Shown one piece after another: positions 18,097 through 50,797 of a DNA stretch of 64,000 nucleotides. The notes beneath the pieces were generated by a model that was given only the letters and a program-made list of their open reading frames with translations, was not told where the DNA came from and made no database searches. Positions within the stretch are counted from its first letter, which is position 1, and each line of letters begins with the position of its first letter. This DNA is from a virus, in IMG/VR virus record IMGVR_UViG_3300025000_000007, positions 1-64,000 of that record. The stretch is one strand, 5' to 3'. Made by a program: the position numbers and the translations under genes.

Positions 18097-21000
18097 TTAG
18101 ATCACCATAGTATAATTTTTCAAAAATTGCGTTATTGAACCGTTTATGGATGCCTCTAAACAGTCCGGTATCAAATCAGAATCAGTATCTAGTGCCAAAT
18201 CTGCAAATGAAATCTGACCGTGATAGATCGAGCCTTCGCCCGGATAGAGATTAAGCTCGTGAATTGTTCCGGTTTCGTCTCTTTTGAATGAAAGTGCCTG
18301 CGGTCGATGAGTATGCAGATAAAAATCAATTATTGATGTTGAGGGATCATAGAGAGCTAACCAAGGTTTTGTGAGGTTTTGCAAGCCGTAAGATGTGTTT
18401 GTGGAGTCGGTGAATTCATGGGTTGTGCTGCCCATGTTTTCCACGCTGTGTAGATTGTCAGCTATGAACTCGAGGCGGGCGCCGATATACCGAGCGGAAG
18501 CCGACGGAGCGTTATACGCACCCCGGCAGCCGGGCCCAGCACGCGGCCCATGATCCCAGCTGCCGCCGAACCGCATGATTGAAGGGTTGTAGCGAGGGTA
18601 GTAGAAATAATCACATAGATACGTCGAGCTTGATCCAGCATTAGCAGACGGAATAAATGACAATGCTCCAAGCTCTTCGGATTGTATCCCATTTATGTAT
18701 CCATCTTCTGAAACCGGCACAGTTCCTGCCCCCGTTTCATATGATCCTTCTGCAAGTGTAGCGGATGGAGTGCCAGTTCCATCTCTTTTCAGGATTGTAT
18801 AAGAGCCATCACTTAAATTCAGATTCAATCCGGCGATAAACTCCCAGCAGTTTCCGTATATGTTTTCTATCCCTCTCCAGCAAACCGGGGTTTGCCCATT
18901 TGTGCCTGAGCCGGTCCCGGTTCCATTTGTGCCAAGACGAGAATCAATTGAATCTGCCCCGGTTGTTTTCCCGGCATATCCTGTGCCAGATGCGAGATCA
19001 ACGATCCCCATTCCCAACGCCGTCTGTGTGTCAAATGTGCCAGTTTCGCAGAAAATTAATGCCTGAATAGCAGAGTATCCCCATACATCAGTAATCCCCC
19101 AACCAGTGCCGTTATTTTTTGCGTATGTTTCAGCATCATCAAGAGTCAGTCTGCCAGAGTTTGGCAAGTTTGGATAGGCTACTGAGCCTGTACATGGCAC
19201 TTTTCCAGTTGCAGATTTAAGTTTGAATACCCCACTTTCAATTTCTCCAGATGCTTCTTTTGCGCCGATGTATACAAAATCTCTGTCAGTTCCACCCCTC
19301 TGAACAAACCACGGGTGTAGTGTGAATCCAGTGTGAGGATAGGGAGAAAACCAGTATCTGTAATATGGTGCGGAGTATTCGTATTTATAATAAAATTTCG
19401 GGCGTTCAACCATTAAATTCCCAGACGCACCGGATAAATCAAGCCCATCACCGCGCGCGTTACTTCCATATAATATTTTGTCTCCTGATATAACACATCT
19501 CCTCTGACCTGAAAAAATTGGGTTTGTATCGAAATTGTAACTTGTTACTGTGTTTCCGTCAACGTCTATTCTGCGCAGTGTTGGCGATTCGTTGGATGAA
19601 TCCCGTTCAAATCCGATTATATTTGATTGATCTGTAGACTGATTTAGTGAAATTTGTGAGCCTGTCTCACCGATGTATCGGATTACAGTTTTAAACCGAC
19701 ACTGACTGAACAATCCTGATGCAGGAGGCAAATCAACTCTCAATCCTATTCTCTTTGATGTACCTTTATTTCCACTGTAAGTTATATTCCCTGAACTTCC
19801 ATCTTTTGTTTCTCCTGAAGAACCCTTTGGAAAAACTGCTCTGCCTGCTCCTGCTCCGTAAACATCATCAAATTTCGTACCATCTGCGGCAGTGAAGTTG
19901 GCTGATGTTTGAGCTACCTGAGCGTAGGCTGCATCAAGAGAATGAGTAGATGCTAATTGATATGCTGTGCCGTTGTGTGTGTAAAGTGCTAGAGAGGTTG
20001 CTGAAAGATTATCTGGGACTTGTACCTCGACATATGCTGATTTTGCAACGTTTGTATATATATTGCTAATACTATATGTGTTTGCGGATTCGCTGCCAAC
20101 GTCGCCTATACCAATCCATATACGCGAAATCGCAGTAAATAAAAATCCGGCGTCTAATCGGGAGGGGTTTTGTCCAGACGTTGCCACTGGGGCGTGTATT
20201 GGAAGTACAAAACGTGTAAGAGTATTTGCCGATACTGGAAAACGCGAGCCTGTATAGCTCATGATAGGATAAGATGATCCAGTATATGATTCCAATCGAA
20301 GATATAACGTGCATGACTGTGAACATACGATATCAAAACTAACAAATGTGGGGGATGATAAATTAATATTCAATGCTTTTGTTATTGAATGAATTCCTGT
20401 AGATTTTGCATTGCCTGAAAAAATTAAACGGCCATCTGTAGATGAAATTGTGCCAGTTCCGTCAAACGCACTCCAGCCGGTAATAATACTAGAATCTATA
20501 GCCACCGATGGATTATTATCACCATCGTTCCGCGCCGTAAACTCCTGAGTAATCGTATGTGCAGCAGTATCAACAGCCAAATATCCAAGCTCTTTTAATT
20601 TCCCGGCTGTCAACGTTTTTGTACTATTTTGTCCTGTGATATCTGTAAGATAAACACCATCCGTAGACGTATAAAGAGTTCCGGGCAAATAATCAGGAGA
20701 TTCAGACCCTTTTAATCCACCAAAATCAGCAGTTAACCTGTTTGTGTTTGCAACATATTCATTATAAGAAGGAAGTATAGCCGCGTTTTCAGTCGGAAGA
20801 ACGAGAACTTTCCCGGTAGTTTCAAGAGTAATCACACCATCGGTTGCTTCCAGAAGTTCAAGAGAGCCGGGGATAGGAGTTCTCAAAACAATCTGTAATT
20901 TATCATTTGCCAACCCGTCCGAAGGATACGAATGAGTAATACATCCGTTTTCCATCACAAGGGGATACTTAGGATTATCAGCATTATAAAATTCCATATC

Positions 21001-22608: not shown

Positions 22609-23530
22609 TCTTCCTCCACGATGAACATCTTCTCAAATTGGGATAGAAGGCATTTCAAAAGAGCCTGTTCCTTTCTTGCTATTTCCTCATCCTGAACGCT
22701 CATAGAGAGTTTGAACAGTGGGTTATCAGCATAGAGAGCTTGTTCTCTTATGTCGATTGCTTTTACAAGAAGTGCTTTAAATTTTGGGATATTCTCTTCG
22801 GTTGTCATAATAGTCGCTCTTTAGTTTTTATCTAATCAATTTTAAGCCGTTTTTCATTTGCCTAATACAAATACATTAACTTCACGAGAAATGCCCGCAA
22901 ATCGCCTGAGATTCGATCTCTCGTATAATTGCACGTCTAGTTAGTTCAACGCCGTACACATTTCCATATCCTCGATATTTATCACAAAATTCCCGAGCTT
23001 CAATATCAGGATTTAAATCCGGCTTGGAATGGACTAACCATTTGATGTCCTTGAAGAATAACTCGGAATATTGATGTGCAAATTCATCTCTAGCTCTATA
23101 GAGACTCCAGCCGGGATGCAGTTTATAAAACTCTTTTCTCTCTTTTCGATAGGATTCTAACGTTTGAAGATGGTTTTTTAGATCAAGAAAGAAGTTTGGA
23201 TCTGAATAAGTTGGGAGGGCTTCCCAATGGATTAGGTAGTTAGATGGAGCCTGATGATACAAAGATGACAGAGTAATTAAAAGAATACCCCCTTAACCAC
23301 ATCTTCTTTGTAATCCTTTGACATCTTATGCTCAAGAGAATATGCAAGCTGTTCAAATTGAGATTGAAAAGACAATACTTGATTTGCCTGCCTTACCCAA
23401 TGGATACTATTTAGTAGTTCATTTAAAAGAGACATCTGAGATATTATAGTTTTTAATACAGTTCCTAATTCTCTATATTTTTCAATTGGTATGCAGTTCA
23501 TAATTATCGCCCTGGTTTTTGGTCACATTT

Positions 23531-23833: not shown

Positions 23834-24421
23834 CTAGTAAAGCTTTTCGATATATTCTATAAAGTTTCGGTTTTTGTTGTTTTTACCGACTCTAACTTCG
23901 TTAGGAAACATCTCAAGAGTTTTATTCATTACTTCTTTAGTTGCCTGTCTTACTCCCTTTGTGGTTGCCCTGTGTTCCTCTGGCACTTCATGCAGGAGAA
24001 ACTTCTGGACTTCAGGACCAAGCATGAACTTTTTACCATTTCGGTATGCTTCAGAAGGGAGATGGTCGCGTAGGAGTCTAGCCCGGACTTCGGTTTCATT
24101 CCCTGCCACTAAAACAGTTTCTTTTAAAATAGGGATAGAAGAATCATCAATACGCTCGGATAAAAGAGCCAACTGCTCAGGGATTGTTTTAATTACTTCT
24201 TTATCTTCGCCCTGTGAGTCTTCCCCGATGCAATAAAACTCATCTGCGCCGAGGTGGTTCTCGATATTAGAAACACGTTTGAGTAAAAAACAGTCGGGAT
24301 CTGTTAACACCCGCATTACTAACCCCTTGAATACGCCGTATACTTCGGGATCTTGCAGGAGGTTTAAGAATTCCTGAATTTTAGGATTGGCGAGCATGGA
24401 CGTTTGCCTCATCTTGCCCAC
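23834..24421 (-). CDS. Hypothetical protein, possible origin-binding protein
   Basis: 195 aa ending 8 bp from the repeat cluster; basic helical C-terminus. Confidence 0.4.
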   Translation of the reverse strand: MGKMRQTSMLANPKIQEFLNLLQDPEVYGVFKGLVMRVLTDPDCFLLKRVSNIENHLGADEFYCIGEDSQGEDKEVIKTIPEQLALLSERIDDSSIPILKETVLVAGNETEVRARLLRDHLPSEAYRNGKKFMLGPEVQKFLLHEVPEEHRATTKGVRQATKEVMNKTLEMFPNEVRVGKNNKNRNFIEYIEKLY

Positions 24422-28376: not shown

Positions 28377-29051
28377 TCATACCCCCACCGCCAGGATCTT
28401 CTTAATCTCATCCATGTCAGAGCCAACTCTACAATGGGCATTGATATCATGCAGGAGAATTACCCCAGGCTTCAAACCCGCTTGAAATGCAACATATTCC
28501 AACAGGTAAGCGTATCCCCTCAGATCATTTTTCATGGCAATAGCCATCTCATTAGACCTGCCGAGAATCGTTAAATTAACATAGTCATTATCTTCGTCTT
28601 CTTCGGTGTCCCATACCAAAGTGACCATACATGGAACTTCATTCTTCCCGTAATGTTTTGTCTTAAAAAGAGGATTTACAATTCTACGGCTTTTAGGTGA
28701 CTCCTTCAGTTTTCTAATAGTCTCATCTAATCCACCATCTTCATGGAGTTCCTGACCGTATGTATATTCAGGGTCCTGTACATCCAGACCGGCATTTTCC
28801 CCAAAACAAACAGGGTTTCCAGTTATCAGGTTTTTACCAAAAGCGAAACCACATATAAAACTAAGCAATTCTTCTGAATCTTCGCAACAGTAACATGGAA
28901 TTACTATAATAACATGTTTATAATATTGAACCGTTTCTCCACGTTCATCTTTTCCGCGTTTTCCTTTATTCATGATTAATTTGACTGTTCTATACGTGGC
29001 TTCTCTTATTGATTTACAGACTAATGTTTGGGGGATTATAGGAGGTGTCAT
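28377..29051 (-). CDS. Thymidylate synthase/dCMP hydroxymethylase superfamily protein
   Basis: YTYG, SRR, catalytic PC, RSNE...ND and NAH motifs; start set at ATG 29051. Confidence 0.8.
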   Translation of the reverse strand: MTPPIIPQTLVCKSIREATYRTVKLIMNKGKRGKDERGETVQYYKHVIIVIPCYCCEDSEELLSFICGFAFGKNLITGNPVCFGENAGLDVQDPEYTYGQELHEDGGLDETIRKLKESPKSRRIVNPLFKTKHYGKNEVPCMVTLVWDTEEDEDNDYVNLTILGRSNEMAIAMKNDLRGYAYLLEYVAFQAGLKPGVILLHDINAHCRVGSDMDEIKKILAVGV

Positions 29052-29175
29052 AATTTCCCCTCCAACTGCCTGAACATCCCACAACACGAACAATCCGGCT
29101 GATGAGTACAATTATAACTATCACTTTTATATATTGTGCATTTTTTATTTCCTTTCGGGGAAAAGGGGCACTGGC

Positions 29176-33631: not shown

Positions 33632-35038
33632 ATGTCAAATATGGATTTATTAAACGATTCTAAAATGAAAATTCTCCTCGGCCTCAGAGGATTTGCTATT
33701 GTAAAAATCAATGAAAAATCAGCACAGTGGAGAATAAACAGTGAGGACATTCTTGATATTGATGTTTCCTTCCCTCCTACACTATGGGAAGCAAAACATA
33801 AAGGGAAAGTCGTTGACTGGTCTTCTGGAATTGGGATTCCTGCGAATATCAAGGGTATGATTGAAACACTTGTTGAGGACTATAAGACGGCTTTAAAAAA
33901 CATAGGGATCGAAGGAGAACCGCAGGAAAGCCCTGCTGAAGTAGTCCCTATGGAATTCCCAAAAGAGGAAGTAATTGACGCGCAGACTGGCGCAGAAGAA
34001 GCCGATAAAATGGCTCAGCTCGAAGCTATAATGAACGGTGAAATTGAAGCACCCACCGGCATAAATAAAAACAATGTACCTGAAACTGTAAATGCTACAA
34101 TCGAACCACCAAAGAAGAATGAATGGACACAAGGTGGATATAAAGCAAAAGTTCAGAAAATCGGTTTCGCAGAAGTTACACCAGTTAGACCCGGGACTCA
34201 GATAAGACCAAGTAGGACACTCCGAGGACTTACGCCCAGGCTTGCAGAATGCGGCAAGATCAAGATAGGAAGGAAGGGAGAAACTAAAACCTCATCGAAG
34301 GGGAACCAGTTCAGATCCCCAGAAAAGCTGGATCATTTCGTAATTACAACAATGGACAAAGAAAATGATGATTTCGTGCAAGACGAAGCATTAATGACAA
34401 AACTAGGGAGATGGGATACATTTGGAGGTTACCATTGCAGAGAGATCCCTGTAAGGCTTCCTTATGATGATCCTTCGCTTAACTTCCCGACATCATACGC
34501 TTACTATGATAGTGCGGCGTGTAAGTGCAGAGGGGACGGATTCATTGCATTAACCGCCGAAGGGGAAACTGTAGAATGTAATCCAGAAACCTGCCCAAAT
34601 GTAAAAGATAAGAGATGTAAGCCCAATGGAGTCTTATCTCTCATACTGGATGATGCCCCTAGAGTCGGGGGAGTCTATAAATTCAGGACAACCGGCTGGA
34701 ATTCCATAAACAATATATTTTCATCTATGGAGTTCATTAGAGGTCTTACAAACGGACTTCTTGCGGGGCTGCCCCTGATGCTTACACTTACCCCTAAACA
34801 TACGGTAATCCCTGGCACAAAGACCAGTACCACCATTTACATGGTCAACCTTGAGTACCGGGGATCTTTACAGGAAATGGTCGCAGCGATCCAACAGACC
34901 ATGAGTACACGTGCACTTATGCAGTATTCAGTAAGGGATTTTGAGAAACTCGCTGAAGAAGCACTGGCATTGCCAGAAGCACCAGAGGAATGTAAAGAGG
35001 TTGCAGAAGAGTTTTATCCTGAGTCAGTGAAAATTTAA
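33632..35038 (+). CDS. Gp3-like (recombination directionality factor-like) phage recombination protein
   Basis: GKIKIGRKG...PEKLDHF, CRGDG, C..CP...CK and GGVYKFRTTGWNS motifs. Confidence 0.6.
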   Translation: MSNMDLLNDSKMKILLGLRGFAIVKINEKSAQWRINSEDILDIDVSFPPTLWEAKHKGKVVDWSSGIGIPANIKGMIETLVEDYKTALKNIGIEGEPQESPAEVVPMEFPKEEVIDAQTGAEEADKMAQLEAIMNGEIEAPTGINKNNVPETVNATIEPPKKNEWTQGGYKAKVQKIGFAEVTPVRPGTQIRPSRTLRGLTPRLAECGKIKIGRKGETKTSSKGNQFRSPEKLDHFVITTMDKENDDFVQDEALMTKLGRWDTFGGYHCREIPVRLPYDDPSLNFPTSYAYYDSAACKCRGDGFIALTAEGETVECNPETCPNVKDKRCKPNGVLSLILDDAPRVGGVYKFRTTGWNSINNIFSSMEFIRGLTNGLLAGLPLMLTLTPKHTVIPGTKTSTTIYMVNLEYRGSLQEMVAAIQQTMSTRALMQYSVRDFEKLAEEALALPEAPEECKEVAEEFYPESVKI

Positions 35039-40518: not shown

Positions 40519-41946
40519 TCACACCTTCTTATAAATTGAATACTCTTCCGTCAATGATTTTGAAATATCAAGAACGTCCTGAGAACTGCATGTTACAATT
40601 ATTTTCACAGGTTCCTCCGGAGGTTCAGGCTCTCCAACTGCCCCTCCTGAGCTTTCATCTTCTTCTATAATACAATATCGAGAAGCTTCATTCGTACCGT
40701 TATATCTCCCTGCTTCACCTCCGGAATAAATACAAGGGGAATTAACAGAGTCCAGAACATAACCTGATTCTGTATAGTGTCCACCCATAGCAGAAAGATG
40801 ATATCCATTCACGAAAAGCGGATCTTTCAGAACAGGGGCAGAGCCTGTTAACCCGTTAGAGACATTTCCATAAAAACAATTATCTGAAATATCAAGGATA
40901 TATCTGCCCTGATTTGCAATTGCAAGTCCCTGAGTTCCGACGAGATTCTTTTTTGTATTTGTTATGATGTTGTTTTTTACAGTAGCTGAATAACCTGAAC
41001 TTGAAGAGGTCGTCTGGTATCTCCCAAAAAGAATTCCATAACCGAGGCAACCGTTTATTGTATTATCCTTAATAGTGACATTATCCCATCCATCAACAAC
41101 CATGCCGCCAACTCCTGGAATACCATTTCCAGCAGGCATCAAACCACAATTAATAATTAGGTTATTACGTACTAACAGATTTTTAGCTGCATTAATGGCC
41201 GTTGCGCGGAGTCCTGCCGCCCATACCCCCGGTCCTAAAGTGTTCTGGATTGTATTATTATAGATAGAGATCTCAGAGGTTGTTTCATCCTCTTCTGAAT
41301 TTTCAACCTGAATCCCTGGGGAATATGCTTCAGTCGTCCCAAACACTAGATTATCATGGAATGATACTCCCTTAGATCCCTTGCTCCGGAGTGCTGAATT
41401 TGTCCGGCAATATGTGGTATTGTTCCAAGCCTCTACACCTGAACAGCGATCCGCATAAAGCCCCTCATGTCCGGCCTCTTTTATTAAATTTCCACAATAA
41501 AGAATATTTTCGCAATCGGTTAATCTTGCAATGTCACCCTGTGATTCTCCCGCTATAATATTTCGAATGGTTATGTTTTTTCCATTTTTAAGGCCAACGA
41601 AATTATCAAATCCCTGCCCGTGAGGTATTCCAGCGGCAGCCTGCGCTAATCTATTCCCCTTGAAAGTGATATTCTCAACTAAAATATCTGAAATAGTGCT
41701 TCCTGCTTGCCCGAAAATTGGAGTCATAGAGGGAAATAGAGTTCGAGATAACCCCGGAGAAAGTGTAATTACTGCGCTCGTATCTTCGGGCCCTGTTATT
41801 GTGGTTCCCGAATTTAGTTTGTAGGGATAATTAGCAGTATATTTATTATCCTTGAGTAATTCGATTTCGGAATAGTGGAAACCGTCGCCCACTTTGTCAA
41901 AAGTTTCCTGCTGTAAAGTTCCGCTGGATAGTTCAAGAGTTGCCAT
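40519..41946 (-). CDS. Disaggregatase-like parallel beta-helix protein without signal peptide; candidate endolysin
   Basis: PbH1 repeats, GHEGLY, NS..R and GPG.W motifs; preceded by a holin-like gene. Confidence 0.65.
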   Translation of the reverse strand: MATLELSSGTLQQETFDKVGDGFHYSEIELLKDNKYTANYPYKLNSGTTITGPEDTSAVITLSPGLSRTLFPSMTPIFGQAGSTISDILVENITFKGNRLAQAAAGIPHGQGFDNFVGLKNGKNITIRNIIAGESQGDIARLTDCENILYCGNLIKEAGHEGLYADRCSGVEAWNNTTYCRTNSALRSKGSKGVSFHDNLVFGTTEAYSPGIQVENSEEDETTSEISIYNNTIQNTLGPGVWAAGLRATAINAAKNLLVRNNLIINCGLMPAGNGIPGVGGMVVDGWDNVTIKDNTINGCLGYGILFGRYQTTSSSSGYSATVKNNIITNTKKNLVGTQGLAIANQGRYILDISDNCFYGNVSNGLTGSAPVLKDPLFVNGYHLSAMGGHYTESGYVLDSVNSPCIYSGGEAGRYNGTNEASRYCIIEEDESSGGAVGEPEPPEEPVKIIVTCSSQDVLDISKSLTEEYSIYKKV

Positions 41947-42142: not shown

Positions 42143-42422
42143 AGTTCCGTTTTGTAAAATGTGTATTCATGAGTGTAACCTTGGATTATCAGTCAAACAT
42201 TATATAATTACAATATATGTGTCCTGTATTATAAACATTTGTGAATAGATATTTTATGTCATAAAAAGAGAAACGGCAGACATTGATAGAAAAGTATTCT
42301 AAATTATACATAAAGAGAGTATATTGTTATTCGATGGTTATTATATTAGTTGATTATAATTAATTTAGTTGATTCTTCTAGTATTATATTATTGAGATGA
42401 TATTATAGTTGTAAACTCATTT

Positions 42423-42468
42423 GAGTACAAACATTTATATACTTTGTACGCGTAGTATTATCTACAGG
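42423..42468 (+). promoter_or_regulatory. 46-bp promoter/operator repeat, copy 1
   Basis: GAGTACAAACATTTATATACTTTGTACGCGTAGTATTATCTACAGG, identical to 43470-43515; TATA box inside a GTACAAA/TTTGTAC dyad. Confidence 0.85.
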
Positions 42469-42477
42469 TGAAATACA

Positions 42478-42858
42478 ATGATGATAAACAGAAGAAACGT
42501 GAACCTTTTTGGTACGATGTTTGAATATGTTGAAGATGCTGACTTTGGATACTACGAAACTGCAGACGGGAAAATAAGAGAAACTCCATTCATTGAAGCA
42601 GTGAAACCTCAAGAATCATCTGATTTCATGATATTCCCCGAAGACCAGATACAATACGAAGGTAAAACCTATACTAAGGTCAATTTTGGGGAATATGACG
42701 ACGAGGAAATAGGAGAAACTTTCCTGCTGGATAGTGCCCTCGATGAAGAAGTTTTCTTGATCTATAATAAGGTAGAGGGAAAGGAAGCAACTTACAGGGC
42801 AAATTCAAAGTGCTACAGGACAGAAGATCTTGCTTATATTAGTGGAAATCTAAATTAA
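42478..42858 (+). CDS. Acidic hypothetical protein (early-gene-like)
   Basis: Starts just after promoter repeat 1. Confidence 0.55.
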   Translation: MMINRRNVNLFGTMFEYVEDADFGYYETADGKIRETPFIEAVKPQESSDFMIFPEDQIQYEGKTYTKVNFGEYDDEEIGETFLLDSALDEEVFLIYNKVEGKEATYRANSKCYRTEDLAYISGNLN

Positions 42859-43218
42859 CGAGGTCTGAAAAATGACCTCTAAAATAACTTTTTCAGGAAT
42901 CAAACACACTCTTGTCAAATCTGCTTCTGACATAACTAAAACGGAAATATCCATCGGGAAATTAAACGCACGTAGCGTTGTAAACAGGTTAGGACCAAGG
43001 CTTAGAATAGACGTCCTTGTTCTGAAAACACTTCCTGTATTAATCTGTGATGAGCCGTTCACCGTCAACGAGGACAATATCAGAAAAGGGACGAGGCGTT
43101 GTTATGAAACACTGACCAAATCGTTTTTAGACTCTGGTAAGCTCCCGGTACACGCTGATTTTTTCAGGAAAATTAAGGATGGTGATAATATAGTTGTGAT
43201 TTTGCACGAGGTCACACC

Positions 43219-43470
43219 ATGAATTTGTCAACAGAAATACAATGTCATAGTGACACGGAATTAAATTATTTTAAATTGCTCGTCGAGGTATCAAAATCTA
43301 AAATGACTATAATGGAGCTGGCAACGGCCATAGGATTGTCAGATGACAATACCCAGCGAATGATAAAAAAGTTGCAAACTAAAGGATATGTGAATAAAAT
43401 ATTCGCTGGAAAGTGCAGGTATGTATCACTCACTGATCGGGGTAAAAACGCTATAAATTCAATACAATAG
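43219..43470 (+). CDS. Winged-helix (MarR/TrmB-like) regulator
   Basis: MTIMELATAIGLS...IKKLQTKGYV...SLTDRG. Confidence 0.75.
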   Translation: MNLSTEIQCHSDTELNYFKLLVEVSKSKMTIMELATAIGLSDDNTQRMIKKLQTKGYVNKIFAGKCRYVSLTDRGKNAINSIQ

Positions 43471-43515
43471 AGTACAAACATTTATATACTTTGTACGCGT
43501 AGTATTATCTACAGG
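43470..43515 (+). promoter_or_regulatory. 46-bp promoter/operator repeat, copy 2, upstream of the type IV-B transcription unit
   Basis: Exact copy of 42423-42468, followed by RBS and ATG. Confidence 0.85.
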
Positions 43516-43748
43516 AGGAATACAATGAAAATTGTAACAGCAAGCGGGAAAGTAACAATCAACAAAAGATCAGCATACGGAAAATGGCTACAGGGATGGA
43601 TCTCTTGTGATGGATTTACAGGCGCATCAACTCTTTCAGATGCGTGGGATAGAGCAACGGTGATTAAGACGAATGGGTGCTCGTGGGAATGTCTTGGCAA
43701 ACTGATGGCATCCGAACAGAAGTTTGGGAAGGGGTGTGCAGAACCGGA

Positions 43749-44225
43749 ATGAAATTTCAAAAAATATATTTTATCTCAGATCACGCAGTTTCCGCGTTCA
43801 GGGGGCGTTTGAATTGTCCTAACCTCCCTACAAAACAAGTACGGGACCATATACTTTCCGAACTTCAAAAAGAAAATCTGGTTACATATGAGAGGTACAA
43901 CCACAAAATACAGCCCATATATCAGGGAGCATACAACGGAATTATATATCATATTCCTGTCCACCACGAAGTTAAAAAAACGGATGCGTGGGATGTTGTG
44001 CCAACTGTATTGCTTCCGGGTATGAAAACATATTCGAATTGGTTAGAAATGCTGACCGTGGAGGAGGCTGCAACTAAACTGAATGTGTCTCAAGAACAAG
44101 TTATCATATTTTTGAAAGAGGGTCGATTGAAGTTTGATCCTCAAGTAAACACAGTAATAAAAATATACAAATTGGACGTGAGGAGACTAAATCAAGAACT
44201 GATAAAAGAGAGGGTGACAACTTAA
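43749..44225 (+). CDS. DUF4258/RelE-like domain fused to excisionase-type HTH
   Basis: ISDHAVSAFRGR...VVPTVL N-domain; MLTVEEAATKLNVS...LKEGRL C-domain. Start set at ATG 43749. Confidence 0.5.
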   Translation: MKFQKIYFISDHAVSAFRGRLNCPNLPTKQVRDHILSELQKENLVTYERYNHKIQPIYQGAYNGIIYHIPVHHEVKKTDAWDVVPTVLLPGMKTYSNWLEMLTVEEAATKLNVSQEQVIIFLKEGRLKFDPQVNTVIKIYKLDVRRLNQELIKERVTT

Positions 44226-44836
44226 CAACACTTTCAAAATTAATATGTAAAGCACGTGGGATAACCCCCGCCATAGGCAAAGAACCAGGAACGTGTGTTT
44301 TTTGCGGATGTGAAACTGATCAAGGATATCCTAAAAAGGTGATATCAGACAATTTTACAGCATGGGATAGACTTGGATACGGTGATGTCGTATGCCCAGC
44401 GTGTAATCATGTTTACACAGATCCGACTTATCGAAAAAAAGCATGGGTGGTCACAAAATCCACTTTTGCAGAAATTAAAAGAGAAAATGCTAAAGTCCTG
44501 CTGCTTAATCCCCCCGAACCTCCATTCGTGATATACCTCACAATGACCTGGAAAAAACAGGGGTTTGTGAATATAATGAATAAAGTTCAGGAGTCAAAAA
44601 AAAATTACTCAATCGGACTTGATTACGAACTTATCGAGGTGAACACATCAAAACTTGAAGAATACTGCACTCTAATTACCGATCTCCTTGAAAAGAAGAT
44701 CACAAAAACTGAATTGCAAACCGGGCAATTAAAACCGAAAAGCTATGAAAAGCTTGGGTATGACATGGAACTTATAGAAAAAATAAAAACATTAGCTGGA
44801 AACCCACTATGGAATCTGGCTATATTTGTGAGCTGA
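44222..44836 (+). CDS. csf1: Type IV CRISPR Csf1 (Cas8-like) subunit
   Basis: The frame is open upstream of the tracked GTG (44339) and encodes CVFC, which pairs with CPAC; also NFT.WD, PPEPPF and KK motifs. The start is uncertain. Confidence 0.75.
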   Translation, partial: LTTLSKLICKARGITPAIGKEPGTCVFCGCETDQGYPKKVISDNFTAWDRLGYGDVVCPACNHVYTDPTYRKKAWVVTKSTFAEIKRENAKVLLLNPPEPPFVIYLTMTWKKQGFVNIMNKVQESKKNYSIGLDYELIEVNTSKLEEYCTLITDLLEKKITKTELQTGQLKPKSYEKLGYDMELIEKIKTLAGNPLWNLAIFVS

Positions 44837-44840
44837 TAAA

Positions 44841-45218
44841 ATGGGAATGGAAATCACAGACAAAGAATTACGTGGACTGCTGGCAAAAACACTTTCAGGT
44901 ATATGGAAAAGAGTATCTTGGAAAGACATGACATCTATGAAACGTTCTTCCGTAGATGTGTTTTCGGAAAGGCTGAGGGCCGCGGCAGGCATGGAGAACG
45001 TGCCCCAAATGCTTGAAAAGATCTGCAAAGGGTTAGGGCTTCCGTCCGCAACGATGGACACAATAGATATTGAAATGCTGGAAGACGAAAGGGAACGGGT
45101 AAGGAAAATGCTCGGGAAAGAATCCGTGCTTGTTGCACTGCTCACTCAGAAAGAATCAAAAGAACAGTTTGAAACTGCAAAGAAACTGAAAGGAAATGCA
45201 AGTCTGGAGGGATATTAA
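44841..45218 (+). CDS. cas11: Type IV-B small subunit (Cas11-like)
   Basis: 125-aa alpha-helical protein between csf1 and csf2. Confidence 0.65.
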   Translation: MGMEITDKELRGLLAKTLSGIWKRVSWKDMTSMKRSSVDVFSERLRAAAGMENVPQMLEKICKGLGLPSATMDTIDIEMLEDERERVRKMLGKESVLVALLTQKESKEQFETAKKLKGNASLEGY

Positions 45219-46114
45219 TGTCAGTATTACGAGTACCTGGATACATTACAGCACAGTCACCGATCCACCACGGAGGGGATGAGAAAGCAGGCAATCAGAG
45301 CCTAATCAGGCGGCAGACCTATATAGTAGATCAGGCTCCGATAGAGATCCCTGTGATCTCAGGAAATGCAATCCGGGGAGTATTGCGCCGTATGATATGG
45401 GACGATCTGCTTGAGAGGGTAGGATATACCCTTACAAACATGAAAATATATCATATGTTGTTTACAGGCGGTATCCTGGAAGCCGTTGACAGCAAAGACG
45501 TTGGAGTCATAGATATTGAAATGAAAAAGAAACTACGTGCTGAACTGCCTCCTCTTGCGGTCCTCGGAACTGCCCTAGGAAATCAGATGTTTGAGGGAAA
45601 ACTGAAGTGTGCAATTGCTCAGCCAATATGCAAGGAACTGAAAGAATTCCTTCCAGATGACCTGCCTATCGAGCCAACTACAAGCATCTATGAACTGGTT
45701 TCTTTCGATTTCATGACCCGCCTAGATGATGTCAAGGAGGCACGGCAGGAAGGAGAAGCAGCACACCAGATGCTCATGAATTTTGAGGTAATCAATCCCG
45801 GCACTATCTTTGTCCATTCATTCGCGCTTGACAATCCAAACGAAGTTGAAAAAGGGGTACTGGCCAGATCCCTGAACCTCTGGAGAGAACATCCCTGGGT
45901 AGGAGGGAAGTCTGGAGTAGGATACGGGACAGTGAAGCTGAACTATGAGATTGATGATGATTCAGCTTATCTGGAATTCATCGAAACCAACAAAGAGAAA
46001 ATATGTGAAACCCTGAACTGGCTAGAGACACGGTCAAGTGAAAAGAAACAAGACGCGGAAGAATCCGCAAAAGCATCTAAGAAGGGGGCTAAACTTCTTG
46101 CAGAAGATAATTAG
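45218..46114 (+). CDS. csf2: Type IV Cas7-family backbone protein Csf2
   Basis: SPIHHG, PVISGNAIRGVLRR, LFTGG, QM...EVI.PG and G-loop VGGKSGVGYG. Confidence 0.9.
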   Translation: MSVLRVPGYITAQSPIHHGGDEKAGNQSLIRRQTYIVDQAPIEIPVISGNAIRGVLRRMIWDDLLERVGYTLTNMKIYHMLFTGGILEAVDSKDVGVIDIEMKKKLRAELPPLAVLGTALGNQMFEGKLKCAIAQPICKELKEFLPDDLPIEPTTSIYELVSFDFMTRLDDVKEARQEGEAAHQMLMNFEVINPGTIFVHSFALDNPNEVEKGVLARSLNLWREHPWVGGKSGVGYGTVKLNYEIDDDSAYLEFIETNKEKICETLNWLETRSSEKKQDAEESAKASKKGAKLLAEDN

Positions 46115-46820
46115 AAAACTGAGGGGGTATAACCCCCCTTCAAACTTTGAGCCTTTCAAGGTTGAAGCAAAACTGGGGGCCCCTATACTTCTTGCTCACC
46201 CATATATACACGGTGACAGTGTGCTTATGGCGCTACTAATGAAACAGATACTTAAGGATGATTATTATAATCTTCCTTCTAAGTCTCCGATTCCAGTTCA
46301 TGACATTCTCAGACTGCCTCTGAAACAGACAAATGGAGTTTATCACGCCTCCGTATCTCAGTTTGATACTGATATTATCAAGACCGAAACTGTGTACAAA
46401 AGGTTTGATGAGGAACACATCAACCACGTGAATTCAAAAATTAAGAGAGTACGCAAGGGGCAGGGGTTTTTCAAAGATTATATGATTAAGTTTCCTGTAA
46501 TTCCCACAAAATCAGTGACGTTCTATTTCAATGGGGACCTGAAAGAGTGCATGAATATCTTAGAGGACCTTACAGCACTTGGGAAAAAAACAGATATTGG
46601 TTATGGTATCGTTCGCGCTGTATCGGTTGAGCCCACACCTGAAGACTATTCGTTTGTCAAAGACGGGAAGTGTATGAGACCACTGCCAGCAACCGAATTC
46701 AAAGACCTCTATGGTATCCCTTCAGTGGCTCAAAGACTCGCATGGAGGGCTCCCTACTGGGATAAGAAAAACGTGCAGATGTGCGCTGCCCCTGGTGCTA
46801 TATTCTATCAAAAATTCTGA
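46098..46820 (+). CDS. csf3: Type IV Cas5-family protein Csf3
   Basis: HGDSVL, LPL, YHAS, F...GD, LGKK...GYG.V, MRPLP and RAPYW motifs; likely TTG start at 46098 after AGGGGG. Confidence 0.85.
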   Translation: MQKIIRKLRGYNPPSNFEPFKVEAKLGAPILLAHPYIHGDSVLMALLMKQILKDDYYNLPSKSPIPVHDILRLPLKQTNGVYHASVSQFDTDIIKTETVYKRFDEEHINHVNSKIKRVRKGQGFFKDYMIKFPVIPTKSVTFYFNGDLKECMNILEDLTALGKKTDIGYGIVRAVSVEPTPEDYSFVKDGKCMRPLPATEFKDLYGIPSVAQRLAWRAPYWDKKNVQMCAAPGAIFYQKF

Positions 46821-46829
46821 GGGATATTC

Positions 46830-47543
46830 ATGATGCCTGACGAATGGCGCGAACTGTTTGAGTTATGGGCTGCAACAGACGACTACGAAAAAAGGATAGA
46901 AGAAGCTGAAAACAATATCAAACAAATTTTGATGACTGAAAAACCTACTGTCCTGTATAGCGGGGGAAAGGACAGCCTGGTTTTATTGCGGTTGGTGATG
47001 CTACAAAATGATAATATCCCGGTGTATTATAGTGACTCTGGTTATGATTATGACTCAAAACAGATCAAGATGCCTAAACAGATGACGGATGATATTATCC
47101 AAATTGGAAAGGAAGCCGGAGCGAAAATATTATACAGTTGTGGGCACAAAACGCCGAACTCTCGCCGGTTTTTTGGTAATCTGTTCAGAGTCATGAAAAA
47201 ACATGGCTGCAATGTTGAACTTTTGGGAATACGTGGTGGGGAAAGTTCAACCAGGGCCGCAAGAGTCAAGGGAGAACTTGTGAAAAGAGAAGGGACCCGA
47301 AGAGTATCTTTTCCTCTTAGAAATTTAGATTGGAGGGATATATGGGCATACCTGATCTCAAATAATATCAGGTATCTCGATTATTACGACAAATATGCAG
47401 TCGTCGAGGGGGGATATGATAAGGTGAGGCTCACTTCAAGATTCAGCCAGGGGATGATTCATAAAGGCGGGTCTTTGTATATCGACGGGGTTATGATGCC
47501 TGAATTTAGAAATGAGGGGCCGGATAAATTAGAAAAACGTTAA
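46830..47543 (+). CDS. cysH: CysH/PAPS-reductase-like protein of type IV-B
   Basis: PP-loop YSGGKDS, GIR..ES..R and PL...DIWAYL. Confidence 0.85.
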   Translation: MMPDEWRELFELWAATDDYEKRIEEAENNIKQILMTEKPTVLYSGGKDSLVLLRLVMLQNDNIPVYYSDSGYDYDSKQIKMPKQMTDDIIQIGKEAGAKILYSCGHKTPNSRRFFGNLFRVMKKHGCNVELLGIRGGESSTRAARVKGELVKREGTRRVSFPLRNLDWRDIWAYLISNNIRYLDYYDKYAVVEGGYDKVRLTSRFSQGMIHKGGSLYIDGVMMPEFRNEGPDKLEKR

Positions 47544-47578
47544 TAAAATTCAAACATGTACATTTTTTAACAACGTAT

Positions 47579-47607
47579 GAGTACAGATGTATATATACGT
47601 TGTACTC
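47579..47607 (+). promoter_or_regulatory. Degenerate third copy of the GAGTACA...TGTAC promoter/operator
   Basis: GAGTACAGATGTATATATACGTTGTACTC with the same spacing as the 46-bp repeats. Confidence 0.65.
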
Positions 47608-48577
47608 ACATTATACTATACTAATGTGTATATGACGATATGACGAGGTTTGAGCAAATGATCAGCAGAAAAGGAAGAGCGACAAAAGCAGCACAAATGG
47701 AGCAAGCCATAAAGAACGCGAAAACCATAGAACAAGTATATCAGATCCTAGATTGCAGCCAATTCAGACTTACAAGCCCGGAAGAATGTAAAATTGCACA
47801 AGAATGGGCAAGACTTCAAGAAATGAAAGCAGATCATGGAATCGGCGCATTTGCTCAGGAGGTAACCGCATGACATCTGGAACGCTACCGTCTAAGAAAA
47901 GATGCGGGAACTGCTCACATTGGGTTAGAGTTAATGTCCCTGAACAATTGATGGCATATTGCAAATTTAATGGATGTAGACGGCATAGAGATGGATACAC
48001 GGGGGTTGATTAAATGTCAGAAGTATGGGAACTCGTATATAAATGTAGGATGTGTGGAAACACGTTTTCCGGTGCTAGATGGTTCGGTGACGTTTTGGGT
48101 AATAGGGCTTACGATGAAAATGGAAGAGAAACACATCGGCACGAATGTGAGGATGGGAATGTAGGGATTGGGGACATCGTCGGATTTAGGAAAGTCGGAG
48201 ATGATTAAAAATGTCATATCTTGAAAACATGAAAACCGATCTTGAACGAATTAAAGAATTAACTTCTCTTGCAATTAATAATCTTTCGAGGGAAGAATCA
48301 ATAACAAAATATCAGATGATTATTAATGAACTTAATGAGATGGCTGAGAGAGTAACTGATGTGAAACAGAAAGCAAATATAGCTATTCATATGATTGAAA
48401 CTTACAAAAAATGAGTTGCTATGTGTTTCTTCCATCTTTTGAACCTGTGAGTGTGGAGAAAATGAATGAAAAAGATGATAATAAATAAAATAGTTGCAGA
48501 ATTAGATAATAGAGTGGAAACACTTAAAAAAAATATTAAAGTGAGTTAATCTCACATTTTCGGTTTTTTATATAATA

Positions 48578-50797
48578 TCACAATTCAGTATTATTCGCCT
48601 CTATATCGTTTGCCCCGGCGAATAAAAATTTCGTGCCCGTCATACCCTTCGCGGTGTTCCCGGCAATCACATTATAATTCGACGTTCCTGCTGTTTTGAT
48701 AGCCTGCCCCGGAAATCCTCCTGTATCGATTATTGTATTATTCTGCATAATGACATTTGATATATCTGTAATCAGTATCCCAGAATAACTGTGGTATGCA
48801 TAATTACAGTCTATGATGGTATTATTTGAAATCACCATTGAGTCCGGGGTGAACGAATTTGCATCTACTGAGATACCATTCCACGACGCATTATAGATAT
48901 TATTTCCTTCGATTACTACATTTGAGTGATCCTGATTTAATTTTATCTGGATGGCATCATACGAAATATTGCTAATGTGATTATTTCGGATAACTAACTG
49001 TTTAAACGCTTCAATGTGGTATTCGTCATCCAGGAATACAATCCCATAGTCTCCACCGTTCTGATAATTATTCTCAATGAACAGTTCCTCATCGATGCAC
49101 CAATACGCACCCTTATACAGACGAGAATTTGCTCCCCCATAAAGATAATTGTCAGTTATGATGTGAACTCCACCGTCTATGGTCCCTCTACGTTCTACTG
49201 CTCCGTTTCCTCCATAGATTCTATTATTTCTAAATGTGGAATATTGTGTCCCATCCCAGAATGCAACAGTTGAACCTACGGGCAGATACATAGTATTATC
49301 GACTACATCCATATCGATACACATATTATGCGCGTCAACACAGCAGGACGTGACTACAATAGCGGCTGTCAGGATATTATTATGTACGGATACTCCTCGG
49401 ATAAGTGAATTTCTCTCATCTGTATTCATTGTTATACAATGTCTACAATTTTCCACATGATTTGAATATATTTCAGCATGTGCAACGCCCGACCAGATCC
49501 CTATTCCATATCCAGACGCTCCGCCAGCTGTTTTTATACTGTCATATACATAATTGTTGAACAGTCTGACATTATATGATGAATATACTGAGATCCCTGC
49601 AAGCCCTGCGTTTTCCACCCGGCATCTCGATATTGAACTATTGACACAATATCTAATAGATATCCCGTTATGGACCCCGGTTTCGTCTGCGTCAAATATT
49701 CTTAGATTTTCGATGTTGACCTCTACGGGTCTGTATACGTTTACTTTCGGAGTGTCGCCTGTCGCATAATCACGCAATAAATTTTCAGTTAGTGTTATAT
49801 CGTTGCCTGATACACTCTTAACGCGATACATTTCTCCTGTTAGTTGATCGTCGTAATCATCGGGGCAGTACAATACATTTTTCCAGAGTTTGATTATATC
49901 CCCTGCCTGAACGTATGCGCCGTTCGATACTTTAATAGTATTGTTGCCAGCGACTGATGTTTCAGTTACGGATAGGTTTTCAACGATGATCTGTCCCTCT
50001 AAATAAAGCCCGTTTGTTGTCCCTGCAACTACATTTTTATTTATAGTCACTTTCCCTAACCCAATTATATTTAATGATTTCCCGGCACATGATACTCTCC
50101 CAGTCCAATTATAAACACCAGGCAGGACGTAGATAGTAGTTCCCCCATCTGCGGCAGCGAAAGCCTCGCCCCATTTGACATGATCAGATGTTCCTGTGCA
50201 TTCATATGCTGCGCCAGATCCTGAAGTCCCGATTGTAATTCCCAGAGCAGCGTCACTGTTTATGACAGTCCCCCCCCCTCCTGCAATTTCGATCCATTCT
50301 ATGTTATCAGATAAAAATTTAGTACCTGTGCCCTCTCCTGTAGGGCATAATCCAGGATTGCTAGTGGTCGCATTTAGCGTAGTTACATTATCAGCCACGG
50401 CGAGTTCGGTTATTTTTATTGCATCTATCCCATCTGATTTATGGCTGGCAGCGTGGCCGGTGGGGTATCTATTATCCGCCAATCTGACATCGTTTCCCTC
50501 GCATGCCGTCCCAGCAGTAGTCCCAAATGTCACCCCTCCGACCCCCTCTGGGACTCCCCATGTGATATCATCCCTGAGATATTTTGTTCCGGTCCCCTCA
50601 CCCTTTGGACATAGTCCATGTTTTGTTGTGCTGGAGTCAAGGTCAGTGATGTCGGTAGTGGTGCCGAGTTTATCGAGTGCAATTACATCAGTACCCCCAA
50701 ACTCATGGGCTGCTGAGTGGTCTGGTATGCTGCTTAGCGCGGCCTCAAAATCCACGGCATTCAATACAATTTTACATTTTCCATCTACGATAGGCAT
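48578..50797 (-). CDS. Tail spike/receptor-binding protein with beta-helix depolymerase-like domain
   Basis: Last gene of the tail operon; duplicated N-terminal H..H..G.D...GLCP.GEGTGTK.L.D..W unit, then PbH1 repeats. Confidence 0.75.
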   Translation of the reverse strand: MPIVDGKCKIVLNAVDFEAALSSIPDHSAAHEFGGTDVIALDKLGTTTDITDLDSSTTKHGLCPKGEGTGTKYLRDDITWGVPEGVGGVTFGTTAGTACEGNDVRLADNRYPTGHAASHKSDGIDAIKITELAVADNVTTLNATTSNPGLCPTGEGTGTKFLSDNIEWIEIAGGGGTVINSDAALGITIGTSGSGAAYECTGTSDHVKWGEAFAAADGGTTIYVLPGVYNWTGRVSCAGKSLNIIGLGKVTINKNVVAGTTNGLYLEGQIIVENLSVTETSVAGNNTIKVSNGAYVQAGDIIKLWKNVLYCPDDYDDQLTGEMYRVKSVSGNDITLTENLLRDYATGDTPKVNVYRPVEVNIENLRIFDADETGVHNGISIRYCVNSSISRCRVENAGLAGISVYSSYNVRLFNNYVYDSIKTAGGASGYGIGIWSGVAHAEIYSNHVENCRHCITMNTDERNSLIRGVSVHNNILTAAIVVTSCCVDAHNMCIDMDVVDNTMYLPVGSTVAFWDGTQYSTFRNNRIYGGNGAVERRGTIDGGVHIITDNYLYGGANSRLYKGAYWCIDEELFIENNYQNGGDYGIVFLDDEYHIEAFKQLVIRNNHISNISYDAIQIKLNQDHSNVVIEGNNIYNASWNGISVDANSFTPDSMVISNNTIIDCNYAYHSYSGILITDISNVIMQNNTIIDTGGFPGQAIKTAGTSNYNVIAGNTAKGMTGTKFLFAGANDIEANNTEL

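What the first reader, a model, noticed from the sequence alone, without database searches (positions are those of the whole stretch)
44222..47543. Complete array-less type IV-B CRISPR-Cas operon on an archaeal virus
Seen: csf1-cas11-csf2-csf3-cysH in canonical order, tightly coupled, with no cas6, cas1/cas2, dinG or CRISPR array in the window. Known: type IV-B loci are mostly on bacterial plasmids and phages, lack arrays, and have unresolved function; crRNA sequestration has been proposed. Inference: here it lies in an early-gene island of a methanogen virus whose likely hosts are CRISPR-rich, which fits counter-defence or an RNA-guided, CysH-mediated chemistry.
Basis: partly seen in the sequence, partly recalled or inferred. 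Interest (0 to 1): 0.8.

Follow-up and report, generated by a model that had tools for sequence, protein, structure and literature searches.

The report
Array-less type IV-B CRISPR operon, methanogen virus
A complete tailed virus of Methanosarcinales archaea carries a guide-less type IV-B CRISPR-Cas gene set with its CysH-like enzyme, a kind of locus already reported on two other archaeal virus groups, and its hosts' own CRISPR arrays hold spacers against these very genes.

Summary
Window 44222-47543 encodes csf1, cas11, csf2, csf3 and a cysH-like gene. They are tightly packed and recognised by type IV models. The window is part of a complete 73.4-kb virus with terminal repeats. I found no CRISPR array, cas6, adaptation gene or dinG anywhere on it.

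The host call is now evidence-based. Seven or eight spacers from five Methanosarcinales genomes match the virus, three of them inside csf1, cas11 and csf2. Related proviruses lie in Methanosarcinales chromosomes.

It is not new in kind. Array-less type IV-B plus cysH was published for a Methanoperedens virus and for Bathyarchaeia "Fuxiviridae". The function of IV-B remains unknown. Counter-defence by capture of small RNA is my preferred reading, but it is inferred.

Local oddities:
- csf1 has no canonical start codon: TTA stands where seven relatives have ATG, and the same sequence appears in the assemblies of two samples.
- Csf2 carries a 26-residue tail, and csf3 starts at TTG.
- A duplicated archaeal promoter with an operator-like palindrome heads the unit.

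Verdict: a new member of a known kind, of moderate interest.

The parts
42418..42481 (+). Promoter-like repeat, copy 1. A TATA box (TTTATATA) sits inside the palindrome GTACAAA..TTTGTAC at 42425-42449. It heads orf126 (42478) and orf116 (42872).
   Evidence: The 64-nt direct repeat is 94% identical between copies. The 25-nt core occurs exactly twice, against 0 expected in shuffles.
42478..43222 (+). Two small ORFs of unknown family (126 aa and 116 aa). In relatives L001, L002, L003 and L005 they lie directly upstream of csf1.
   Evidence: tblastn gives 53-73% identity with conserved adjacency. There were no Pfam or PADLOC matches and no usable Atlas hit.
43219..43470 (+). An 83-aa winged-helix regulator, a candidate binder of the palindrome.
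   Evidence: Pfam MarR_2 3.6e-06 and TrmB 2.4e-05. It matches only the C-terminal wHTH part of the Csa3, CasR and CARF models, so it has no CARF domain.
43465..43528 (+). Promoter-like repeat, copy 2 (core 43472-43496). This is the likely promoter of the unit orf75, orf158, csf1 ... cysH.
   Evidence: A GGAGG motif lies before the ATG at 43525.
43525..43752 (+). orf75, of unknown family.
   Evidence: ORF list. No family match.
43749..44225 (+). orf158 with a C-terminal HTH_17/excisionase-like motif. Its ATG overlaps the orf75 stop (ATGA), and its TAA stop overlaps the first csf1 codon.
   Evidence: It is 82% identical to the gene upstream of csf1 in L004.
44222..44836 (+). csf1 (Cas8-like large subunit, zinc-ribbon CxxC...CxxC). 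TTA stands at the homologous start position, and the first canonical in-frame start is GTG 44339.
   Evidence: PADLOC Csf1_0_IV 2.7e-39, covering model positions 3-212. Relatives have ATG at this position. Cys25 is the only invariant residue among 29 Csf1 sequences, and it lies upstream of 44339.
44841..45218 (+). cas11 (small subunit).
   Evidence: PADLOC Cas11_0_IV 1e-19. It is 88-95% identical in L001-L005.
45218..46114 (+). csf2 (Cas7 backbone). It carries a 26-aa Lys/Glu-rich C-terminal tail that is absent from relatives.
   Evidence: PADLOC Csf2_0_IV 6.6e-71. Profile against PDB: IV-C Cas7c 1.1e-35 and IV-B Csf2 (7jhy) 2.4e-27. Relatives are 272 aa. There is an insertion of about 65 nt at the junction.
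46098..46820 (+). csf3 (Cas5), starting at TTG.
   Evidence: PADLOC Csf3_0_IV 1.6e-57. The start was placed by homology to the ATG of relatives.
46830..47543 (+). cysH-like gene (CasCysH). The PP-loop SGGKDS is intact and there is no C-terminal catalytic cysteine.
   Evidence: Pfam PAPS_reduct 3.1e-13. Invariant residues in 25 sequences: S44 G46 K47 D48 S49 G133 R135 E138 R142. The AF2 model has pLDDT 80.5, and its best folds are PAPS/APS reductase, CysD and FAD synthase.
44507..44542 (.). Protospacer in csf1, matched by a spacer in the array of genome G223.
   Evidence: 31 of 36 bases match. The spacer lies between two 37-nt repeats.
44990..45025 (.). Protospacer in cas11, matched by a spacer in the array of genome G225.
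   Evidence: 33 of 36 bases match.
45246..45283 (.). Protospacer in csf2, matched by a spacer in the array of genome G254.
   Evidence: 34 of 38 bases match.

Best explanation
Shown: window 44222-47543 is a genuine type IV-B CRISPR-Cas effector module. It comprises Csf1, Cas11, Csf2/Cas7 and Csf3/Cas5, plus the subtype's CysH-like PP-loop enzyme. It is carried as an accessory operon on a complete 73-kb head-tail virus of Methanosarcinales. The virus has no CRISPR array, no Cas6 and no adaptation genes.

Inferred from the solved IV-B complex: Csf2 and Cas11 form a helical filament around a small RNA, and Csf3 and Csf1 cap it.

Inferred, about 35-40% likely: because the virus supplies no guide, the filament loads host small RNAs. 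In a host full of Cas6-processed crRNAs, some of them aimed at this virus, this withdraws or neutralises guides. That would be counter-defence. CasCysH would use ATP to adenylylate a bound nucleic-acid end or a small molecule. It would not reduce sulfate, since the catalytic cysteine is missing.

The operon is probably transcribed from a TATA-box promoter at about 43472-43496 that is duplicated 1 kb upstream. Each copy sits inside a palindrome that a neighbouring winged-helix protein may bind.

Confidence that this is a IV-B module on an archaeal virus is about 0.95. The 0.45 given below covers the whole statement, mechanism included.
For: Identity: the type IV models match all four Csf/Cas11 proteins. 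The Csf2 profile hits solved IV-C Cas7c (1.1e-35) and IV-B Csf2 (2.4e-27) far better than IV-A Csf2 (2.9e-10) or Csm3 (3.9e-10).

Gene set in relatives: among the 13 related loci L001-L013, 8 carry the same five genes in the same order, 3 (L007, L009, L010) carry them in the order cas11-csf2-csf3-cysH-csf1, and 2 are cut by a contig end.

CasCysH: the PP-loop is invariant in 25 of 25 sequences and there is no conserved C-terminal Cys. The predicted fold is that of PAPS reductase, CysD and FAD synthase.

No guide source on the virus:
- No array.
- No Cas6.
- No copy of the host repeat: the best match is 23 of 37, while shuffles reach 22-24.

Virus: a 116-bp terminal repeat and CheckV 100% completeness; terminase, portal, an HK97-like capsid fold and a tape measure protein.

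Host:
- The terminase matches 20 of 284 Methanosarcinales genomes, up to 60% identity.
- The structural genes match chromosomal proviruses at 64-73% nucleotide identity.
- Seven or eight spacers from five genomes match the virus. The reversed-spacer control gave 0 of 894 below E 0.001.

Host CRISPR load: the repeat family is in 81 of 284 genomes.

Accessory status: only 1 of 284 host-order genomes has this Csf2, and the closest provirus genome, G242, has none.

Selection: on the window's own branch the counts are 77 non-synonymous to 72 synonymous changes, against roughly 3:1 expected under neutrality.

Literature (passages read): the IV-B RNP assembles on heterogeneous non-CRISPR RNA, and a sponge role has been proposed (PMC7937560). 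CasCysH lacks the Cys and has a PP motif (PMC8175902).
Against: No experiment anywhere shows what IV-B does. A 2026 paper still calls its function unclear (PMC13676074 introduction).

In the only biochemical study, co-expressed type I-E crRNAs were not loaded. This argues against simple crRNA capture.

A sponge does not explain why CasCysH is always kept.

csf1 has no canonical start here, so the complex may lack full-length Csf1 in this virus.

The NCBIfam Csf models match only below their cut-offs.

Transcription from the proposed promoter is unproven. No RNA run was listed.

The putative catalytic Asp42 of the solved Csf2 falls in a two-residue insertion that this clade lacks. RNase capacity therefore cannot be read across.
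Confidence: 0.45

Rival explanations
1. The operon serves the virus or lysogen against competing mobile elements (superinfection exclusion, inter-virus conflict). The Csf complex would borrow host crRNAs or other RNAs as guides, bind matching nucleic acid without cutting it, and recruit CasCysH to modify or signal.
For: Type IV systems on mobile elements are generally read as tools of inter-element conflict (PMC13676074 passages; PMC10848311 passages). Relatives of the structural module are integrated in host chromosomes, so a lysogenic phase is possible. The operon sits in an accessory block beside regulators.
Against: No guide source, no Cas6 and no host-like repeat are on the virus. Host arrays contain spacers against this virus itself, so borrowed guides could turn on the carrier. 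The virus has only a small resolvase-type recombinase (15625-16158); I did not identify a large integrase.
Confidence: 0.25
2. The module has left RNA-guided immunity altogether. The Csf filament would be a sequence-independent RNA-binding scaffold, and CasCysH an ATP-dependent modifier of viral or host RNA or DNA. It might, for example, protect viral transcripts or tune host RNA metabolism.
For: The solved IV-B RNP bound heterogeneous RNAs of uniform length and not crRNA. The PP-loop chemistry is strictly conserved in 25 of 25 sequences. The nearest folds include adenylyltransferases and tRNA thiolation enzymes.
Against: The full Cas5-Cas7-Cas11-large-subunit architecture is kept under purifying selection. 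That is more than a plain RNA-binding scaffold would need. No modification target is known.
Confidence: 0.15
3. In this particular virus the operon is starting to decay. csf1 has lost its start codon, and the csf2/csf3 junction has been rearranged.
For: TTA stands where L001-L006 and L008 have ATG. The next in-frame start would drop 39 residues, including the only invariant Csf1 residue. An insertion of about 65 nt adds a tail to Csf2 and turns the csf3 start into TTG.
Against: All five frames are open. The window-branch N/S counts (77/72 overall, 17/12 in csf1) indicate purifying selection. The same sequence appears with 0 differences in contigs of a second sample. TTG is a normal start codon.
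Confidence: 0.08

Closest known systems
Type IV-B CRISPR-Cas of actinobacterial plasmids (Mycobacterium sp. JS623 Csf complex, PDB 7JHY; Rhodococcus jostii locus, here L046)
   Same: The gene set is the same: csf1, cas11, csf2, csf3 and a cysH-like gene. There is no array, Cas6, adaptation module or nuclease, and the system is carried on a mobile element. The Csf2 profile matches 7jhy at 2.4e-27.
   Different: Csf2 is only about 25-30% identical. The actinobacterial loci I fetched have cysH on the opposite strand, upstream of csf1. The carrier here is an archaeal virus and not a bacterial plasmid.
Type IV-B of a Methanoperedens virus, Mp_virus_41kb_42_49_complete (bioRxiv 10.1101/2023.08.02.551345; passages read)
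   Same: The gene list is the same (csf1, cas11, csf2, csf3, a non-canonical cysH), there is no array, and the carrier is a virus of an archaeon of the same order. The authors propose the same counter-defence idea.
   Different: That genome is 41 kb; this one is 73 kb. I had no sequence of it, so relatedness is untested. Its supplementary tree was not visible to me.
Type IV-B of Bathyarchaeia 'Fuxiviridae' (PMC10848311; passages read)
   Same: A virus-borne IV-B with an adjacent CysH-like gene. A host spacer targets the viral cas7; here host spacers target csf1, cas11 and csf2.
   Different: The Fuxivirus locus has a mini-array (two repeats and one spacer) and a viral Cas4. This genome has neither. 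The host phylum differs.
Type IV-C1 of Thermococcales (PDB 11fs 'Cas7c'; PMC13676074, passages read)
   Same: This is the best-scoring solved relative of the Csf2 clade, at 1.1e-35. It also has Cas11 and Cas5.
   Different: IV-C has a Cas10-like HD large subunit, is chromosomal, and cleaves ssDNA and RNA collaterally. This locus has Csf1 and CasCysH, and no HD protein was detected.

Membership tests
Type IV-B CRISPR-Cas | Csf1 large subunit present, and not a Cas10-like HD protein | tested here: met
   Csf1_0_IV 2.7e-39. The zinc-ribbon cysteines are conserved. No Cas10 model appears among the PADLOC matches shown for the other 106 ORFs. Caveat: there is no canonical start codon.
Type IV-B CRISPR-Cas | Csf2 (Cas7) and Csf3 (Cas5) of the type IV lineage | tested here: met
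   Csf2_0_IV 6.6e-71 and Csf3_0_IV 1.6e-57. PDB profile ranking: IV-C, then IV-B, then far lower IV-A and type III. The NCBIfam equivalog cut-offs were not reached. I did not build a reference phylogeny.
Type IV-B CRISPR-Cas | Type IV Cas11 small subunit | tested here: met
   Cas11_0_IV 1e-19.
Type IV-B CRISPR-Cas | Adjacent cysH-like gene with a PP-loop and no catalytic Cys | tested here: met
Type IV-B CRISPR-Cas | No dinG (IV-A), no recD-like helicase, no Cas6, no adaptation genes, usually no array | tested here: met
   The whole 73-kb genome was scanned. Nine of the 34 PADLOC families matched were not shown to me.
Type IV-B CRISPR-Cas | Forms an RNA-bound Csf2-Cas11 filament | not testable with these tools
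   Inferred from 7JHY.
Archaeal head-tail virus (Caudoviricetes-like) of Methanosarcinales | Hallmark genes and a complete genome | tested here: met
   Terminase, portal, an HK97-like capsid fold, Mu F, a tape measure protein and tail completion proteins. A 116-bp terminal repeat and CheckV 100%.
Archaeal head-tail virus (Caudoviricetes-like) of Methanosarcinales | Host link by CRISPR spacers and related proviruses | tested here: met
   Seven or eight spacer matches from five genomes of the order, with a clean control. Provirus matches in chromosomes. A disaggregatase-related domain.

The most novel reading that the evidence does not exclude
The viral IV-B module is an anti-CRISPR machine caught in an arms race. 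It would capture Cas6-processed host crRNAs by their repeat-derived handle, CasCysH would adenylylate and so disable them, and the hosts would answer by acquiring spacers against the csf genes themselves. In this virus, csf1 would be translated without any canonical start codon, by re-initiation at the overlapping stop of the upstream HTH gene (TTAA).
Probability: 0.1. Interest if true: 0.8.

Novelty: new member of a known kind. Interest (0 to 1): 0.4.

Why it matters
Type IV-B is still one of the CRISPR-Cas subtypes with no demonstrated function. This locus gives a natural setting in which it could be tested:
- The virus genome is complete.
- The host order is named, and Methanosarcina, a genus of that order, has genetic tools (recalled; the host genus itself was not determined).
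- The host CRISPR repeat is known.
- Real host spacers aim at the virus and at the operon itself.

A RIP-seq and interference experiment could therefore be designed from sequence alone. As a discovery it adds a third archaeal virus group to two published ones. It does not open a new category.

Tried and rejected
Complex prediction: Csf1 + Csf3 + CasCysH, with CasCysH as the partner, returned 'no answer' (score 0.00). It is reported here only and is not evidence either way.

Expression: no RNA holder was listed for the operon. Only DNA contigs of one groundwater study were available.

Fused forms of CasCysH: the 'longer' search found none. This is weak evidence.

Protein Atlas on the two conserved upstream ORFs: no usable hit.

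Phage collection: blastn of the operon gave no match.

Rfam: 0 families at gathering score in the window. tRNAs: 0.

Solitary host-like repeat on the virus: not found. The best match is 23 of 37, the same as in shuffles.

CARF protein: rejected. The PADLOC CARF, Csa3 and CasR matches come from the 83-aa winged-helix protein and cover only the models' C-terminal wHTH part.

HTH-Csf1 fusion by -1 frameshift: considered. I saw no canonical slippery heptamer upstream of the TAA (reading). Neither supported nor excluded.

Assembly error at the csf1 start: rejected. Contigs of a second sample cover 43691-47600 with 0 differences. Both samples belong to one study, and contigs hide minor variants.

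Over-targeting of the operon by host spacers: not claimable. The three operon hits came from a search restricted to 40-60 kb that scored only two candidates per genome. I inspected 11 of its short hits (3 in arrays, 8 not) and left the other short hits unexamined. In arrays chosen without regard to hits (10 stretches of 9 genomes, 681 segments), 2 matches at E <= 1e-4 fell on the virus and 0 of them in the operon. Spacer matches to relatives are also scattered.

AT-rich 31-35-nt matches at 48458-48492 in four genomes: not in arrays and low in complexity. Dropped.

Temperate lifestyle: not established. The virus has only a small resolvase and a protein with a Gp3-like domain.

Supplementary files of the two key papers (the Csf2, CysH and Csf1 trees) could not be seen. 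They may already place relatives of this clade.

Full report
WHAT IS THERE

The ORF list shows five tightly packed plus-strand genes between 44.2 and 47.5 kb. The PADLOC models taken from CRISPRCasTyper name them as follows:
- Csf1_0_IV: 2.2e-30 for the GTG ORF, rising to 2.7e-39 (133 bits, model positions 3-212) when the frame is read from about 44225.
- Cas11_0_IV: 1e-19.
- Csf2_0_IV: 6.6e-71. The best type III model reaches only 3.5e-09.
- Csf3_0_IV: 1.6e-57.

The fifth protein is a Pfam PAPS_reduct domain (3.1e-13).

The NCBIfam equivalogs for Csf1, Csf2 and Csf3 are the top NCBIfam hits, but they score far below their curated cut-offs. The proteins are therefore divergent members.

Against solved structures, a 17-sequence profile of the Csf2 clade scores:
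- type IV-C Cas7c: 1.1e-35
- the type IV-B Csf2 of 7JHY: 2.4e-27
- type IV-A Csf2: 2.9e-10
- Csm3: 3.9e-10

Csf2 is thus type IV, on the B/C side. With Csf1 in place of a Cas10-like HD protein, and with a CysH-like gene, the gene content is that of subtype IV-B. I did not build a reference phylogeny.

THE ELEMENT

The window is bases 1-64000 of a 73,429-bp virus record with a 116-bp direct terminal repeat, rated 100% complete.

Hallmark genes are a terminase, a portal protein, an HK97-like capsid fold, a Mu F-like protein, a tape measure protein and tail proteins.

On the whole genome:
- No 14-mer recurs at CRISPR-like spacing.
- The one 12-mer pair is a weak 21-nt repeat inside a gene.
- The Cas6 Pfam family gives nothing.
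- Among the 25 of 34 PADLOC families shown for the other 106 ORFs, none is Cas6, Cas1, Cas2, Cas4, Cas3, Cas10 or DinG.
- No copy of the host CRISPR repeat is present: the best match is 23 of 37, as in shuffles.

HOST

The terminase matches 20 of 284 species genomes of the order that contains a Methanolobus MAG, that is Methanosarcinales. The best match is 60% identical, and some matches lie deep inside megabase contigs.

The structural genes at 57-60 kb match many of these chromosomes at 64-73% nucleotide identity.

The same search turned up short matches inside the operon. Three of them lie between 37-nt repeats of CRISPR arrays in three genomes of 4.1-4.9 Mb:
- csf1, 31 of 36 bases
- cas11, 33 of 36 bases
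- csf2, 34 of 38 bases

That repeat family is present in 81 of 284 genomes of the order, with up to about 290 copies in one genome. The reversed-pattern control gave 0.

I cut 894 inter-repeat segments from 13 array stretches of 12 genomes and compared them with the virus. Seven matched at E <= 1e-4, one of them borderline. The cas11 spacer sits at an array end and was missed by my extractor, so the total is seven or eight matches from five genomes. Reversed spacers gave none below 0.001.

The virus is therefore a Methanosarcinales virus that its hosts' CRISPR systems have met.

Whether the operon is hit more often than the rest of the genome cannot be said, because the three operon hits came from a targeted search.

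RELATIVES AND NOVELTY

Seven viral contigs and 43 loci in species genomes encode related Csf2.

Among L001-L013:
- 8 keep csf1-cas11-csf2-csf3-cysH.
- 3 have cas11-csf2-csf3-cysH-csf1.
- 2 are cut by a contig end.

More distant loci have other arrangements, including the actinobacterial IV-B reference type.

Many of the closest hits are short contigs placed in bacterial MAG bins of mixed phyla. I read these as mis-binned viral contigs, which is an inference.

Only 1 of 284 Methanosarcinales genomes carries this Csf2. The module therefore travels on viruses and is not part of host chromosomes.

In the literature:
- An array-less csf1-cas11-csf2-csf3-cysH set on a 41-kb Methanoperedens virus was reported in 2023 (passages).
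- A IV-B plus CysH set with a mini-array on Bathyarchaeia 'Fuxiviridae', whose cas7 is hit by a host spacer, was reported in 2024 (passages).
- A full-text search for Methanosarcina + virus + 'type IV-B' returned only the Methanoperedens preprint. Searches found no other archaeal-virus case.

This is therefore a new member of a known kind.

LOCAL ANATOMY

A 64-nt sequence occurs twice, at 42418-42481 and 43465-43528, at 94% identity. Each copy contains TTTATATA inside the palindrome GTACAAA..TTTGTAC, followed by a Shine-Dalgarno-like motif and an ATG. I read this as a duplicated archaeal promoter with an operator.

The second copy heads orf75, orf158 (HTH_17-like, with ATGA overlap) and then csf1 to cysH.

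An 83-aa winged-helix protein ends just before it.

In L001, L002, L003 and L005, two small unknown ORFs (homologues of 42478 and 42872) abut csf1 directly. The window and L004 have the wHTH and orf158 genes inserted between them.

THE csf1 START

Homology to Csf1 begins at 44222-44225, but that codon is TTA. The frame holds no ATG, GTG or TTG until 44339.

L001-L006 and L008 have ATG at the homologous position.

Starting at 44339 would remove 39 residues, including the first CxxC. Its first cysteine is the only invariant residue among 29 Csf1 sequences.

Contigs of a second sample of the same study cover 43691-47600 without any difference, so this is not an assembly slip.

Changes unique to the window's branch number 77 non-synonymous to 72 synonymous over the five genes, and 17 to 12 in csf1. 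This is far from the roughly 3:1 expected without selection. It argues against long-standing decay.

How, or whether, full-length Csf1 is made here is unexplained.

A second local change is an insertion of about 65 nt at the csf2/csf3 junction. It gives Csf2 a 26-residue charged tail and leaves csf3 with a TTG start where relatives have TAATG.

CasCysH

In 25 sequences the PP-loop (S44, G46-K47-D48-S49) and G133, R135, E138 and R142 are invariant. No C-terminal cysteine motif is conserved.

The AlphaFold model (pLDDT 80.5) is closest to PAPS/APS reductases, CysD, FAD synthase and TtuA, at TM about 0.5-0.55. The profile search agrees.

This fits the published view of CasCysH as an ATP alpha-hydrolase or adenylyl-transfer enzyme and not a reductase. 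It adds nothing new.

MECHANISM

Shown: the parts list and the lack of any guide source.

Inferred from 7JHY: a Csf2-Cas11 filament on RNA.

My preferred reading, at about 35-40%, is counter-defence by loading host small RNAs, with CasCysH adenylylating a bound end or a small molecule.

Rivals:
- Inter-element competition using borrowed guides, about 25%.
- A role outside guided immunity, about 15%.
- Early decay in this genome, under 10%.

The only biochemical study found that I-E crRNAs were not loaded. This counts against simple crRNA capture. A 2026 paper still calls IV-B function unclear.

VERDICT

The novelty is modest. The added value lies in the firm host link, the host spacers against the csf genes, the promoter-operator pair and the start-less csf1.

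Noticed in passing
window 42418-42481 and 43465-43528: A duplicated 64-nt promoter-like element. A TATA box (TTTATATA) is centred in the palindrome GTACAAA-N11-TTTGTAC. The 25-nt core occurs exactly twice, against 0 expected. Assembly graphs of two samples break at this repeat.
   Followed up: partly
window 44222-44224: The csf1 start position is TTA where relatives have ATG. It overlaps the TAA stop of the upstream HTH gene (TTAA). The sequence is identical in contigs of two samples.
   Followed up: yes
window 46033-46100: An insertion of about 65 nt at the csf2/csf3 junction, relative to L001, L002 and L004. It adds a 26-aa Lys/Glu-rich tail to Csf2 and changes the csf3 start from ATG (TAATG overlap) to TTG.
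   Followed up: partly
window 43219-44225 versus L001, L002, L003, L005: The wHTH gene, orf75 and orf158 are inserted between the conserved orf116 and csf1 in this virus. The wHTH and orf158 genes are also present in L004. Other relatives join orf116 directly to csf1.
   Followed up: partly
window 7376-7395, 18730-18747, 23469-23485, 23842-23868, 34106-34137: Further matches to CRISPR spacers of Methanosarcinales genomes G223, G220, G225 and G222, outside the operon.
   Followed up: partly
window 40519-41946, 6394-9831, 48578-50797: Three large beta-helix proteins, one with a disaggregatase-related domain. They are probably tail fibres or depolymerases aimed at the Methanosarcina-type cell envelope. 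Short DNA matches to many host genomes fall in the first of them.
   Followed up: no
window 1023-3554, 14252-14983, 15625-16158, 28377-29111: Four further genes: a HerA-like ATPase (which probably accounts for the HerA, DndH and PbeC PADLOC matches), a radical SAM protein, a small resolvase-type serine recombinase, and a thymidylate synthase. One unlocated ORF matches PADLOC mad8 at 6.4e-17.
   Followed up: no
loci L019, L020, L021, L025 (CasCysH): One clade of CasCysH has CSFGKDS in place of SGGKDS in the PP-loop. The Csf1 proteins of that clade (seen in L019 and L025) have lost most of the zinc-ribbon cysteines.
   Followed up: no
loci L029, L031, L034, L038, L048: Some distant Csf2 loci in bacterial genomes have CRISPR-like arrays next to them, unlike the clade studied here.
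   Followed up: no
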